Shown in pieces: positions 3,185 through 63,961 of a stretch of DNA of 64,000 nt (positions are counted from its first letter, which is position 1; the number at the start of each line of letters is the position of its first letter). The notes under the pieces are model-generated. The model made no database searches. It was not told where the DNA came from and saw nothing but the letters and a program-made list of their open reading frames with translations. This DNA comes from Malacoraja senta (taxonomy: Eukaryota): the NCBI GenBank assembly GCA_038087875.1, contig CM075987.1:23996001-24060000 (forward strand), given 5' to 3'. Made by a program: the position numbers and the translations under genes.

Positions 3185-3464
3185 CCGTGGCTCAGTGGTA
3201 GAGTTCCGGCCTTACAACGCCAGAGACCTGGGTTTGATCCGGGCTAAGGGTGCTGTCTGGACGGACGTCGTGGGTTTTCTCCGAGATCTTCGGTTTCCTC
3301 CCACACACCAAAGATGTACAGATTTGTAGGTTATTTGGCTTGGTATAAATGTAAATTGTCGCTAGTGTGTGTAGGATAGTGTTGATGTGCGGGGATCGCT
3401 GGTCGGTGCGGACTCGGTGGTCTGAAGTGCCTGATTCCATGCTGTATCTCTAAACTAAACTAAA
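3185..3464 (+). mobile_element. HE1-like SINE (internal deletion)
   Basis: Same family sequence with (CTAAA)n tail. Confidence 0.85.
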
Positions 3465-3879
3465 TGACTGAAGTCAGAAAACCGGTTACAAAATTCCTTC
3501 CCCTCAGCCTCAATTCAGTTGATTTAATTTGATTTTGCTATATTGTCAGTTTAAAAATAATAATAATATTGAAAGCATTTAAGATGAATACATGATGATA
3601 AAGACCTTCAAGAAGTAATACTCATAGTAAAATAATTGTAACTTAATTATTATAATTAAAATGAATGTTTTTTTTCTTTTTGTATATACAAACGTTCTTA
3701 ACAGGTAACAATGTGGAGTTGGATGCAGCCCTCTCTCATTGCACTTTGGGGAACATGGGTTTTAGCATCAGAAAGGTCCTGTTCTGTGGTAGTCTCTTCC
3801 ATTCAACTGCAAGCCATTTTCCTGCAGGACCTTTAACACCCAGAGATCTGCTTCAGGCTGTGGGTGATGGACACAGAGG

Positions 3880-33679: not shown

Positions 33680-33752
33680 CACCCAACGTAGGGCTCGAAC
33701 CCACGACCCTGAGATTAAGAATCTCAAGCTCTACCGACTGAGCTAGCCAGGC
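33680..33752 (-). tRNA. tRNA-Lys(CTT)-like gene, probably a pseudogene
   Basis: 73 nt GCCTGGCTAGCTCAGTCGGTAGAGCTTGAGATTCTTAATCTCAGGGTCGTGGGTTCGAGCCCTACGTTGGGTG; cloverleaf forms; five changes versus the recalled vertebrate consensus (four are C>T); no T4+ terminator immediately 3'. Confidence 0.85.
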
Positions 33753-47316: not shown

Positions 47317-47621
47317 GTAAATATCAGAATGCCTTGCACTGTATTTTAGACAATGCATTTTGAACTAGTTTCAGTTATATTACTGTTGTTGCATCTGCAA
47401 AATGAGAACGGAATAATGACTGAATTGGGTGTCATAGGTTATGGGGAGAAGGCAGGGGAATGGGGTTAGGAGTGAGAGATAGATCAGCCATGATTGAATT
47501 GTGGAGTAGACTTGATGGGCCGAATGGCCTAATTCTGCTCCTATCACATGATATGAATTGCTCTGGCGGGCTTATATACATGCTTCTCTTAAGTTATGTT
47601 CATGCATTACTACCCCATATT

Positions 47622-47788
47622 CTTCTTCCTCGTGTCCGGCTATCTTCTTTATCACGTCTTTCCGGTCGGTCAGTGACGGTTGACGGTCGGTGGTTGCAGA
47701 ATTGGCTACTTCAGTCAGTCACTGTGGTACAGTTTCTGTCGTCAGCATGGCCCGGGATGCCCCACGTGGAGGCTTCTGCTTGCATCCC
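47622..47788 (-). mobile_element. 167-nt retroposed element with HDV-like ribozyme head and GAAGAAG tail (family 2)
   Basis: Perfect 13-bp TSD ACTACCCCATATT at 47609-47621 and 47789-47801. Confidence 0.8.
47696..47788 (-). ncRNA. Predicted HDV-like ribozyme with extended P4
   Basis: GGGAUGC(P1) AA GCAGAA(P2) GCC(P3) UCCACGU(L3) GGG(P3', one G-G mismatch) GCAUCCC(P1') GG(P1.1) ...P4... CCAA(J4/2) UUCUGC(P2'). Confidence 0.75.
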
Positions 47789-48032
47789 ACTACCCCATAT
47801 TGAGTATATTACATTGTTCTAATGCAGTGTTGTTCTAATACGGTGCTTTAATTGTAATGGTGAATACGGCATAATGGTATCGTTAATTATTATCTTAAAT
47901 TATCTTGATCGATCTATATGTACAATTCTTTGGAGCAACCTGGATCATGTCCTTTCAAGTCCACTCGAACCACAACTACAAGTTGCGAAGGCAAGAGTGA
48001 ACCAAGCCGGCAACTAGGGTATTGTAACCACA

Positions 48033-49767: not shown

Positions 49768-50108
49768 GGTGTGGGAGATTGCAACCTTCATATAGATAAG
49801 ACTAAAGACTTATCTATACTCCCAAGCCTTTCCTGACGTCCTCTGAGTGAGGGCTACATGTATATATGTATGTAGTTTGTTTTGTTGTGCTATTCTTATA
49901 ACAAATGTAAAGCACTTTGGCCAACGAGAGTTGTTTTTTAAATGTGCTATATAAATAAATGTGACTTGACTTGACTTGACTTGACTTCACGTGGTCCGCC
50001 CTGTTTCGACGAATGCAATCAACCTGGCGTGCACAATCAAATAAGATCAAATAGAACAAGTTGTCCTACAACTTTAGACTGTGCACGCCATACGGAAGAA
50101 GAAGAAGA
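49768..50108 (+). mobile_element. Second copy of family-1 HDV-ribozyme element, interrupted by an L2 fragment
   Basis: TSD AGGCAAAGATT(G) at 49757 and 50109; ends GCCATACGGAAGAAGAAGAAGA. Confidence 0.85.
49791..49984 (+). mobile_element. L2 3' end inserted into the ribozyme P3/L3 region
   Basis: Homologous to 35365-35550; CTTCA on both sides. Confidence 0.85.
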
Positions 50109-50131
50109 AGGCAAAGATTGTCTCACTCAAG

Positions 50132-54135: not shown

Positions 54136-54313
54136 AAGAAGGAACTGCAGATGCTGGAAAATCAAAGGTAGACAAAAGTGCTGGAGAAACTCAGCGGGTG
54201 CAGCAGCATCTATGGAGCGAAGGAAATAGGCAACGTTTCGGGCCGAAACGTTGCCTATTTCCTTCGCTCCATAGATGCTGCTGCACCCGCTGAGTTTCTC
54301 CAGCACTTTTGTC
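54136..54313. mobile_element. Penelope-derived element with perfect 71-bp-arm palindrome and 17-bp TSD
   Basis: Arms 54171-54241 and 54243-54313; TSD AATACTTGATTGTATTA. Confidence 0.9.
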
Positions 54314-63774: not shown

Positions 63775-63961
63775 AGACAAAAATGCTGGAGAAACTCAGC
63801 GGGTGCGGCAGCATCTATGGAGCGTAGGAAATAGGCAACGTCTCGGCCCGAAACGTTGCCCATTTCCTTCGCTCCATAGACGCTGCCGCACCCCGCTGAG
63901 TTTCTCCAGCATTTTTGTCTACCTTCGATTTTCCAGCATCTGCAGTTCCTTCTTGAACAAC
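63775..63961. mobile_element. Penelope-derived fold-back element with 14-bp TSD
   Basis: TSD GCCTCGTCTATTAT at 63761-63774 and 63962-63975. Confidence 0.85.

What the first reader, a model, noticed from the sequence alone, without database searches (positions are those of the whole stretch)
47609..47801. Second, sequence-divergent HDV-like ribozyme element with a perfect 13-bp TSD
Seen: a 167-nt insert between ACTACCCCATATT repeats. On the minus strand it starts GGGAUGC AA GCAGAA GCC UCCACGU GGG GCAUCCC GG...CCAA UUCUGC. P1, P2 and P1.1 (CC/GG) pair fully, P3 has one G-G mismatch, and the P4 region contains an ACUGU-ACC-ACAGU hairpin. It ends GGACACGAGGAAGAAG. The stems differ in sequence from family 1 but the topology, 5' boundary at G1 and GAA tail are the same. 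Inference: at least two ribozyme-headed short element families exist in this genome. This copy lies antisense in the candidate secreted-protein gene's intron.
Basis: partly seen in the sequence, partly recalled or inferred. Interest (0 to 1): 0.8.

Follow-up and report, generated by a model that had tools for sequence, protein, structure and literature searches.

The report
Ribozyme-headed short retroelement from an RTE-like LINE
The 167-base insert is a real, recently mobile copy of a few-hundred-member short jumping element whose first 93 bases fold like a hepatitis-delta-type self-cutting RNA; it is a cut-down version of a 3-kb jumping gene that starts with the same RNA, a known kind of arrangement.

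Summary
Observation confirmed.

It is one of a few hundred young copies. A whole-genome search gave 397 candidates. In the 30 copies examined:
- 27 have a 10-14 bp target duplication flush with the same first G.
- 27 have GGC at P3', so the G-G mismatch is private to this copy.

An empty site with a single ACTACCCCATATT stands in one contig of a DNA run from another organism label.

The element is not a truncated LINE end. It is an internal-deletion derivative of a ~3.07-kb RTE-like LINE. Nt 1-110 match the LINE's 5' end, which starts at the same G1, and the last ~45 nt match its 3' end.

[quoted passage not shown] Distant relatives in metagenome contigs show the same fold.

Caveats:
- No cleavage was shown.
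- The pair at the cleavage site is G1-C, not the canonical G.U wobble.
- Rfam scores are below threshold.
- This copy carries two core mutations.

Verdict: a new member of a known kind, a ribozyme-headed non-LTR element with a SIDE-like derivative.

Side lead: the LINE's closest relatives carry ribozymes that pass Rfam's threshold for the "mammalian CPEB3 ribozyme".

The parts
47789..47801 (-). Target-site duplication, copy upstream of the element's 5' end (AATATGGGGTAGT on the minus strand)
   Evidence: a single copy stands in the empty-site contig of run X16
47622..47788 (-). Whole 167-nt non-autonomous element (family A)
   Evidence: 397 candidates, of which the 40 scored are 96-100% identical and 35 of those 40 cover nt 1-167..
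47696..47788 (-). HDV-like ribozyme fold, nt 1-93; predicted cleavage 5' of G1 (47788)
47782..47788 (-). P1 5' strand GGGAUGC (nt 1-7); pairs with nt 29-35
   Evidence: 7/7 pairs; covaries with family B at pairs 1 and 4
47754..47760 (-). P1 3' strand GCAUCCC (nt 29-35); C35 pairs with G1 (G-C, not G.U)
47774..47779 (-). P2 5' strand GCAGAA (nt 10-15)
   Evidence: 6/6 pairs; the first pair is G-C here and A-U in family B
47696..47701 (-). P2 3' strand UUCUGC (nt 88-93)
47761..47773 (-). P3 with its loop L3: GCC UCCACGU GGG (nt 16-28). G28 (47761) is a private change; the consensus has C.
   Evidence: C in 27 of 30 copies; table 3 (place 47761)
47752..47753 (-). P1.1 3' strand G36 G37, pairing with C21 C20 of L3
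   Evidence: helix 3: 97.6% of cells paired
47748..47751 (-). Joining strand J1.1/4, GCCA here and GCAA in the consensus. With P1.1 the consensus reads GGGCAA, as in Rfam's HDV consensus. C40 (47749) is a private change.
   Evidence: table 3 (place 47749)
47707..47747 (-). P4, an imperfect 41-nt hairpin (nt 42-82) that contains ACUGU-ACC-ACAGU
   Evidence: -8.7 kcal/mol. Family B has an unrelated sequence that also folds as a hairpin.
47702..47706 (-). Joining strand J4/2, GCCAA (nt 83-87); C84 (47705) lies where the catalytic C lies in the CPEB3 and HDV models
   Evidence: alignments to the Rfam models; the motif recurs in relatives
47679..47695 (-). nt 94-110, still collinear with the LINE-A 5' UTR
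   Evidence: element nt 3-110 match L084 at 94.4% and nt 4-110 match L081 at 97.2%
47667..47678 (-). nt 111-122, a linker not found in the LINE at this place (the deletion junction)
47622..47666 (-). nt 123-167, the 3' end of LINE-A: the last codons, the stop codon (destroyed here by the private change at nt 140), a ~25-nt 3' UTR and the (GAA)n tail
   Evidence: loci L032, L033, L036 and L038 match only nt 123-167
47609..47621 (-). Target-site duplication, copy downstream of the (GAA)n tail

Best explanation
The insert is a copy of a short non-autonomous non-LTR retroelement. It arose by internal deletion of a ~3.07-kb RTE-like LINE (LINE-A) with a single ORF encoding an endonuclease and a reverse transcriptase.

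What the element keeps:
- The LINE's first ~110 nt. The first 93 fold as an HDV-like nested double-pseudoknot ribozyme.
- The LINE's last ~45 nt: the end of the ORF, a very short 3' UTR and the (GAA)n tail.

Inferred mechanism:
1. The element has no recognisable promoter of its own, so it is transcribed as part of longer host or neighbouring transcripts.
2. The ribozyme cuts just 5' of G1, which gives the RNA a defined 5' end.
3. The LINE's reverse transcriptase recognises the shared 3' tail and copies the RNA into a nicked target. This leaves 10-14 bp target duplications.

Shown here: the structure of the element, its family, its LINE parent, the uniform 5' end, the empty site, and covariation of the helices.
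Inferred: catalysis, read-through transcription, and which LINE supplies the enzyme.

This particular copy is probably a dead insertion. It has a P3 mismatch and a change in GGGCAA.
For: Family and 5' end
- One search gave 397 candidates. The 40 scored are 96-100% identical, and 35 of them cover nt 1-167.
- Exact-word counts are 197 for a 21-mer of the ribozyme core and 213 for a 20-mer of the 3' end.
- In 27 of 30 copies a 10-14 bp target duplication is flush with G1. Two pairs of these copies are assembly duplicates.
- Mean difference from the consensus in these 30 copies is 42/5010, or 0.8%.

Empty and filled sites
- One contig of X16 shows the empty site.
- The site is filled, with identical sequence, in a contig of X13.

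LINE parent
- Of 20 places fetched that held the 3' word without a listed core word, 4 are 5'-truncated LINEs. They share only nt 123-167, and their ORF ends inside that stretch.
- L084 holds a full-length copy that starts at the same G1, has its own TSD, and matches element nt 3-110 at 94.4%. L081 holds a second headed copy.
- The ORF has an RVT_1 domain (E = 1.2e-26).
- Relatives are 900-1000 aa proteins with endonuclease and RT domains, on contigs of 3.0-3.3 kb.

Fold
- P1, P2 and P1.1 pair fully. P3 pairs fully in the consensus.
- The core motifs are present: L3 UCCACGU, GGGCAA, and a C followed by NAA before P2.
- On 22 sequences of families A and B, 94% of cells pair, against 23-44% when the partner is slid.
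- Compensatory changes in that set: P1 pair 4 is AU in 10 and CG in 10; P3 pair 1 is AU in 10 and GC in 8. P2 pair 1 is G-C in family A and A-U in family B.
- Relatives in metagenome contigs have differently sequenced P1, P2 and P3 at the same place upstream of the ORF. P2, which was not used to pick them, pairs 6/6 in 10 of 12 parsed lineages.

Literature
- HDV-like ribozymes at RTE 5' ends that cut at the element's junction are reported (passages read in PMC3774820 and PMC6765202).
Against: - No cleavage was measured.
- RNA reads over the element in the one raw RNA run were too few (depth 2-12) and showed no pile of starts at G1.
- The pair at the cleavage site is G1-C35. [quoted passage not shown] However, two relatives (L118, L132) also have G-C there.
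- Rfam scores are below every gathering threshold. This copy scores 18.3 for CPEB3 and 17.8 for HDV. A consensus-like copy scores 25.2, 25.7 and 24.2, against thresholds of 35, 50 and 44.
- The plain MFE fold of the 167 nt is no better than shuffles (z = 0.6). That is expected for a pseudoknot but gives no support.
- The covariation rests on few independent lineages.
- All LINE copies inspected (L081, L084 and the family B copy L086) have broken ORFs. No active enzyme source was identified.
Confidence: 0.82

Rival explanations
1. The uniform 5' end comes from an internal promoter in the first ~100 nt that sets the transcription start at G1. This could be pol II, as claimed for Pr77 of L1Tc, or pol III as in classical SINEs. 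The HDV-like fold would then be secondary or inactive.
For: A uniform 5' end is also what a fixed start site would give. In L1Tc and NARTc the same 77 nt are reported to be both promoter and ribozyme (PMC3383444, abstract in the search listing). G1-C instead of G.U may weaken catalysis (PMC1874588).
Against: No tRNA, 7SL or 5S likeness was found in the element. The same head opens a 3-kb protein-coding LINE, which is unlikely to be a pol III unit. Compensatory changes keep P1, P2 and P3 paired across families. That is selection on the RNA fold, which a DNA promoter would not need. A review states that RTE elements carry no promoter of their own (passage in PMC6765202).
Confidence: 0.1
2. The fold is conserved as a structured 5' RNA element that binds the LINE protein or aids translation start, without self-cleavage in this lineage.
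For: For R2 the ribozyme region is also said to bind the R2 protein and to aid translation initiation (passage in PMC6765202). The G1-C35 pair departs from the catalytic consensus.
Against: The non-coding 167-nt derivative keeps the whole fold although it needs no translation. All catalytic-core positions are kept: the C before NAA, the L3 U and G, and P1.1. The 5' ends coincide to the base with the predicted cleavage site in 27 of 30 copies.
Confidence: 0.06
3. The HDV-like appearance is chance, in an ordinary 5'-truncated LINE fragment or unrelated short repeat.
For: Rfam scores are below threshold. The MFE z-score is 0.6.
Against: Random truncation would give scattered 5' ends. Here 27 of 30 are flush at G1, and a full-length LINE starts there too. 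The descriptor hit nothing else in 128 kb. Covariation is seen in three helices. Homologous ribozymes of relatives reach 40.8 and 43.3 bits.
Confidence: 0.02

Closest known systems
HDV-like ribozymes at the 5' ends of RTE (and R2, Baggins, L1Tc) non-LTR retrotransposons (Ruminski et al. 2011, not held here; cited from passages in PMC6765202 and PMC3774820)
   Same: A nested double-pseudoknot ribozyme is the very first sequence of the element. The cleavage site coincides with the element's 5' junction. There is no promoter of its own, a single ORF with endonuclease and RT, and a very short 3' UTR ending in a trinucleotide repeat.
   Different: This is a family in a 1.94-Gb animal genome of undetermined taxon. 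It has a G1-C closing pair, and it has an abundant 167-nt deletion derivative that far outnumbers its LINE (a few hundred copies against roughly a dozen seen). RTE clade membership rests on architecture only; no phylogeny was made.
R2 SIDEs, 'Short Internally Deleted Elements' of Drosophila (PMC3414825, abstract read)
   Same: A non-autonomous element made of the LINE's 5' ribozyme joined to the LINE's 3' end, and spread by the LINE's machinery.
   Different: R2 SIDEs sit in the 28S rDNA site and are rare. This family is dispersed over all large contigs with variable 10-14 bp duplications, numbers in the hundreds, and derives from an endonuclease-type RTE-like LINE.
NARTc, the non-autonomous partner of L1Tc in Trypanosoma cruzi (PMC3383444 and PMC4035085, abstracts in the search listing)
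   Same: A short derivative shares the LINE's ribozyme-bearing 5' end.
   Different: Different LINE clade (ingi/L1Tc) and a protist host. There the same 77 nt are also reported to be a promoter.
Mammalian CPEB3 ribozyme (Rfam RF00622)
   Same: The same fold. P2 (GCAGAA/UUCUGC) is identical to the Rfam consensus, L3 is nearly identical, and a C followed by NAA precedes P2. Ribozymes of the LINE's closest relatives reach 43.3, 31.0 and 30.5 bits against a gathering score of 35.
   Different: CPEB3 is a single-copy intronic sequence conserved in mammals with a G1.U wobble. This element scores only 18.3 bits (25.2 for a consensus-like copy) and is a mobile repeat.
Classical RTE-mobilised SINEs with tRNA-type heads (recalled, no call)
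   Same: A short element that borrows the 3' tail of an RTE-type LINE.
   Different: Those have a pol III promoter in a tRNA-derived head. Here the head is the LINE's own ribozyme, and Rfam found no tRNA likeness in it.

Membership tests
HDV-like self-cleaving ribozyme | P1 helix of about 7 bp that begins at the cleavage-site nucleotide | tested here: met
   GGGAUGC/GCAUCCC pairs 7/7. In the A+B alignment 93.2% of cells pair.
HDV-like self-cleaving ribozyme | P2 that closes the outer pseudoknot, its 3' strand directly after J4/2 | tested here: met
   GCAGAA/UUCUGC pairs 6/6. 21 of 22 sequences pair fully, and one pair covaries.
HDV-like self-cleaving ribozyme | P3 of 3 bp closing a 7-8 nt L3 loop | tested here: met
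   This copy pairs 2/3 (G-G). The consensus GCC/GGC pairs 3/3 in 27 of 30 copies. The pair covaries with family B, ACC/GGU.
HDV-like self-cleaving ribozyme | P1.1: two L3 cytosines pair with the GG that follows P1 | tested here: met
   C20 C21 with G37 G36; 97.6% of cells paired.
HDV-like self-cleaving ribozyme | Catalytic C in J4/2 followed by N-A-A, and the U...G of L3 | tested here: met
   C84 C85 A86 A87, with U19 and G24 present. They align to the same positions of the Rfam CPEB3 and HDV models. By sequence only.
HDV-like self-cleaving ribozyme | G.U wobble pair at the cleavage site | tested here: not met
   G1-C35 in 28 of 30 copies and U35 in 2. Family B has G.U or A-U. Relatives L118 and L132 also have G-C.
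HDV-like self-cleaving ribozyme | Self-cleavage 5' of G1 | not testable with these tools
   Indirect only: 5' ends are flush at G1 in 27 of 30 copies. RNA reads were too thin to tell.
Rfam RF00094 / RF00622 / RF02682 (HDV, CPEB3, F. prausnitzii HDV) | Score at or above the family's gathering score | tested here: not met
   This copy scores 17.8, 18.3 and 14.5 bits. The consensus-like copy L010 scores 25.7, 25.2 and 24.2. The thresholds are 50, 35 and 44.
SIDE-type internal-deletion derivative of a LINE | 5' end and 3' end collinear with the two ends of one autonomous element, with the ORF missing | tested here: met
   nt 3-110 match the LINE-A 5' end and nt 123-167 match the LINE-A 3' end.
SIDE-type internal-deletion derivative of a LINE | Insertions with target-site duplications, and empty sites | tested here: met
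   27 of 30; empty site in X16.
RTE clade of non-LTR retrotransposons (partner LINE) | About 3 kb, one ORF with N-terminal AP-type endonuclease and RT, a very short 3' UTR with a short tandem repeat | tested here: met
   ~3.07 kb; RVT_1 domain. Homologues carry PF03372 or PF14529 plus PF00078. Intact relatives L108 and L110 have a 984-aa ORF and a ~30-nt 3' UTR. The definition of the clade is recalled.
RTE clade of non-LTR retrotransposons (partner LINE) | Placement inside the RTE clade in an RT phylogeny with reference elements | not tested
   No named reference sequences were at hand.
Classical pol III SINE | Head derived from tRNA, 7SL or 5S with internal promoter boxes | tested here: not met
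   No such Rfam match in the element at E up to 10.

The most novel reading that the evidence does not exclude
The element's ribozyme may belong to an RTE lineage whose 5' ribozymes are true homologues of the mammalian CPEB3 ribozyme. CPEB3's intronic ribozyme would then be the exapted head of an ancient RTE insertion, and this genome would hold living cousins of it.

Basis:
- The LINE's closest relatives (55-57% RT identity) are intact 3.1-kb elements.
- Their first ~90 nt score 43.3, 31.0 and 30.5 bits on Rfam's CPEB3 model, against a gathering score of 35.
- L109 and L110 match the model consensus letter for letter across the end of P2, P3 and L3.
- Families A and B share the same AGAA/UUCU core of P2.

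My searches found no paper that makes this link. Ruminski et al. 2011 could not be read.
Probability: 0.4. Interest if true: 0.75.

Novelty: new member of a known kind. Interest (0 to 1): 0.5.

Why it matters
The case shows, within one genome, a complete natural series: an RTE-like LINE headed by an HDV-like ribozyme, a second diverged LINE family that gives compensatory changes, and two short derivatives that kept the ribozyme but no ORF.

A non-coding derivative that keeps the whole ribozyme and outnumbers its parent argues that the ribozyme serves RNA processing for retrotransposition itself, not only translation of the LINE.

The young, near-identical copies and the empty site make the family usable as an insertion-polymorphism marker. 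They also give a natural test set for 5'-OH end mapping.

The link to CPEB3-type sequences, if it holds, would give a concrete origin for one of the few mammalian ribozymes.

Tried and rejected
- RNA evidence for cleavage. No RNA holder was listed by the look-up of sequencing runs. In the one raw RNA run laid (X19, about 6% of it read), depth on the element was 2-12 and the only pile of starts was at 47740, not at G1. The reads come from many copies, so the strand bias is not interpretable. This is no evidence either way.
- Plain MFE folding of the 167 nt gave z = 0.6, which is uninformative for a pseudoknot.
- Rfam at gathering thresholds found only a tRNA in the window.
- A search for partial relatives in the window and in the 30 loci's flanks found none.
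- A pattern for a ribozyme end followed by two non-A bases had 0 matches. The LINE shares sequence beyond the ribozyme, so this was the wrong junction.
- A DNA search with the 3' half returned only copies of the short element.
- The LINE was instead found by comparing the places of the two exact-word searches.
- The second MAFFT alignment (A2) misaligned the 3' strand of P2, so P2 was counted by script instead.
It was replaced by an L3/P3-anchored search. Two minus-strand hits there (L157/L158 and L177) look like chance.
- The script parse missed or misparsed L111 and L132 (P2 offset by one base). It also dropped L084, L107 and L112, whose L3 or P3 are mutated.
- Earlier-findings look-ups gave nothing relevant.
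- The gene context (an intron of a secreted-protein gene) was looked at only through a six-frame ORF list full of repeats and was left untested.
- The taxon was not determined.

Full report
**1. The observation**

The window holds ACTACCCCATATT at 47609-47621 and again at 47789-47801, with 167 nt between them. Read on the minus strand, the insert begins GGGAUGC AA GCAGAA GCC UCCACGU GGG GCAUCCC GG. It continues to GCCAA UUCUGC and ends GGACACGAGGAAGAAG. P1 pairs 7/7, P2 6/6 and P1.1 2/2. P3 has a G-G mismatch. The ACUGU-ACC-ACAGU hairpin sits in a longer imperfect P4.

A strict HDV-type descriptor run over both strands of the window hit only this site. Three HDV-class Rfam models align here in the same register, all below threshold: CPEB3 18.3 bits, HDV 17.8 and the F. 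prausnitzii HDV ribozyme 14.5.

My early notes numbered the 3' part one base too high. The ribozyme is nt 1-93, the P2 3' strand is nt 88-93, and the presumed catalytic C is nt 84 (window 47705).

**2. The family**

The window lies in a 1.94-Gb assembly. A whole-genome search gave 397 candidates. The 40 that were scored are 96-100% identical, and 35 of them cover nt 1-167. Exact words occur 197 times for a 21-mer of the ribozyme core and 213 times for a 20-mer of the 3' end.

For the 30 copies fetched (two pairs are assembly duplicates):
- 27 have a 10-14 bp target duplication that ends flush with the same G1.
- Together they differ from their consensus at 42 of 5010 positions.
- Nt 28 is C in 27 of 30, so P3 is GCC/GGC in the family. 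Nt 40 is A in 29 of 30, which gives GGGCAA after P1, as in Rfam's HDV consensus.

The window copy has four private changes, at nt 28, 40, 140 and 148. The same four differences show up against the copies in three other sequencing runs (table 3, places 47761, 47749, 47649 and 47641). A consensus-like copy scores 25.7 (HDV), 25.2 (CPEB3, E = 1.3e-4) and 24.2 bits, still below the thresholds.

**3. Empty site**

Reads or contigs of four runs were laid on window 47450-47950. One contig of run X16 (organism label G, depth 20.3) joins 47608 to 47789. It skips 180 nt, that is 167 + 13, and 13 letters fit on either side. Its flank differs at 8 of 162 positions. A contig of run X13 (label E) covers 47760-47950 with no difference, so the site is filled there (tables 5 and 8). 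The insertion is therefore absent from a related genome or haplotype that carries a single copy of the 13-mer.

**4. What it derives from**

I fetched 20 places that held the 3' word without a listed core word:
- Fourteen hold full-length short elements.
- One starts at nt 5 and one at nt 37.
- Four (L032, L033, L036, L038) match only nt 123-167. These are 5'-truncated copies of a LINE whose ORF, with a YADDL reverse-transcriptase motif, ends in a stop codon inside that shared stretch. About 25 nt of 3' UTR and (GAA)n follow.

This LINE is rare. A 700-nt probe from its ORF gave 13 matches at 90% identity or more, four of them full-length. It also gave many matches at 68% identity that belong to a second family, B.

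Two copies reach the 5' end:
- L084 holds a ~3.07-kb element with an 8-bp duplication (AGGCTTTC). It starts at the same G1 and matches element nt 3-110 at 94.4%.
- L081 matches nt 4-110 at 97.2%. Its first three bases differ, and it carries a 1.26-kb foreign insertion.

The ORF begins about 45 nt after the shared 5' stretch. It has an RVT_1 domain (E = 1.2e-26). Its relatives are proteins of 900-1000 aa with AP-endonuclease and RT domains, on contigs of 3.0-3.3 kb from many animals. This is the architecture I recall for the RTE clade, but no phylogeny was made.

The 167-nt element is therefore LINE 5' nt 1-110, a 12-nt junction, and the LINE's last ~45 nt. R2 SIDEs have the same design (PMC3414825, abstract read).

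**5. Is the fold real?**

Family B gives an independent comparison. Thirteen 5' ends were fetched, and 10 of them went into the covariation alignment. Their consensus is (G/A)GGCUGC UAAU ACAGAA ACC UCCCCGU GGU GCAGCCU GGGAAAC, then a P4, then GGCCAA U(A)UCUGU.

On an alignment of 22 A and B sequences:
- P1, P3 and P1.1 form standard pairs in 94% of cells, against 23-44% when the partner is slid by 1-3 columns.
- P1 pair 4 is AU in 10 and CG in 10. P3 pair 1 is AU in 10 and GC in 8. P1 pair 1 is GC in 10, GU in 5 and AU in 4.
- P2 pair 1 is G-C in family A and A-U in family B, and 21 of 22 sequences pair fully.
- The two P4 regions are unrelated in sequence, but both fold as hairpins.

These counts reflect only two lineages, so I looked further. 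Relatives of the LINE's RT in metagenome contigs number 282 confirmed, with 80 loci kept. A search anchored on L3 and P3 found ribozyme-like heads at the expected distance upstream of the RT in L118, L127/L128, L132, L154/L156/L177 and L183. P2 was not used to pick them. It pairs 6/6 right after an AA in 10 of 12 parsed lineages, and few shuffles reach that (2-81 of 500). L111 and L132 were misparsed by the script.

Rfam scores for some of these heads: L132 gets 40.8 bits on the F. prausnitzii HDV model (threshold 44), and family B heads get 25.7-27.3 bits on the HDV model.

**6. What speaks against catalysis**

- Nothing here measures cleavage.
- The closing pair of P1 is G1-C35 in 28 of 30 copies. 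For HDV itself the G1:U37 wobble is required, and changes to either base lower activity (passage read in PMC1874588).
- Against that, L118 and L132 also have G-C at this place, and the 5' ends of the copies are uniform.
- No LINE copy inspected has an intact ORF, so the enzyme source is not identified. Families A and B share the terminal GGAC-N-CGA...(GAA)n.
- This copy has a broken P3 pair and a changed GGGCAA, and is probably inert.

**7. Mechanism and comparison**

The best reading is the one described for RTE, R2 and L1Tc elements. The element is transcribed within a longer transcript. The ribozyme cuts at the element's first base. The LINE enzyme starts reverse transcription on the shared 3' tail (passages read in PMC6765202 and PMC3774820; Ruminski et al. 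2011 is not held).

A promoter-defined start cannot be excluded. It does not, however, explain the compensatory changes.

The finding is a new member of a known kind. [quoted passage not shown]

**8.

Window 49769-50109 is a GAA-tailed element with the duplication GGCAAAGATTG. It is split by a younger insertion at about 49798-49985, which belongs to a repeat with 840 candidates, many of them 100% identical.

Intact copies of the outer element (248 candidates, 8 fetched) are about 150 nt. They begin GGGGUGG GA GAUUGCA ACC UUCACGU GGU CCGCCCU G UUUCGA CGAA UGCAAUC. This is a minimal HDV-like fold with a G1.U wobble and almost no P4. Rfam did not report it at E up to 1. So the inference of at least two ribozyme-headed short families holds.

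**9. Side lead**

The closest relatives of the LINE (L108-L112, 55-57% RT identity) include intact elements with a 984-aa ORF. Of the 15 loci searched, four match Rfam's 'mammalian CPEB3 ribozyme' model with their first ~90 nt: L108 at 43.3 bits (threshold 35), L110 at 31.0, L109 at 30.5 and L111 at 23.1.

In L109 and L110 the end of P2, P3 and L3 match the model consensus letter for letter. Families A and B share the AGAA/UUCU core of P2 with it.

Searches for 'CPEB3 ribozyme' with retrotransposon/origin, with RTE, and with evolution/non-mammalian terms found no paper that links CPEB3 to RTE elements (passages read in PMC10919898, PMC8256844 and PMC3774820). This is a lead, not a result.

Noticed in passing
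window 49769-50109 (+); intact copies in L100-L107: A GAA-tailed ~150-nt element family (248 candidates) headed by a minimal, nearly P4-less HDV-like fold with a G1.U wobble. The window copy has the TSD GGCAAAGATTG and is split by a younger insertion.
   Followed up: partly
window ~49798-49985 (+): The inserted repeat ends in a (GACTT)n run. A genome search gave 840 candidates, many 100% identical over ~180 nt, so it is a very recently amplified family. Its type was not determined.
   Followed up: no
L108-L112 (metagenome contigs), first ~100 nt: Intact 3.1-kb RTE-like elements (984-aa ORF in L108 and L110) start with a ribozyme that matches Rfam's mammalian CPEB3 ribozyme model: 43.3 bits in L108 (gathering score 35), 31.0 in L110, 30.5 in L109 and 23.1 in L111.
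   Followed up: partly
L086 (stored reversed; head at stored 3439-3531) and L088-L099: A second RTE-like LINE family (B), 68% identical to the partner LINE, with its own HDV-like head (G.U or A-U at the cleavage site) and a (GAA)n tail. 17 heads were found in the genome. The one full-length copy inspected has a broken ORF.
   Followed up: partly
window 47450-47550: The end of an extremely abundant repeat (summed contig depth about 1e6 in three runs). Other copies continue into an (ACTTATGA)n-type tail, so it is a LINE or SINE 3' end unrelated to the finding.
   Followed up: no
window 33680-33752 (-): A tRNA match at 54.4 bits (Rfam gathering score 29). Whether it is a gene or a SINE head was not checked.
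   Followed up: no
window 54184-54300 and 63798-63896: Long near-perfect palindromes that match plant miRNA-precursor models on both strands, below threshold. They are probably inverted-repeat transposon remnants.
   Followed up: no
3' ends of L108-L113, L111, L120 and of LINE-A and LINE-B: The terminal motif GACACGA (GGACTCGA in LINE-B) followed by a trinucleotide repeat (GAT or GAA) recurs across these distant relatives. It is a candidate recognition site for the reverse transcriptase.
   Followed up: no
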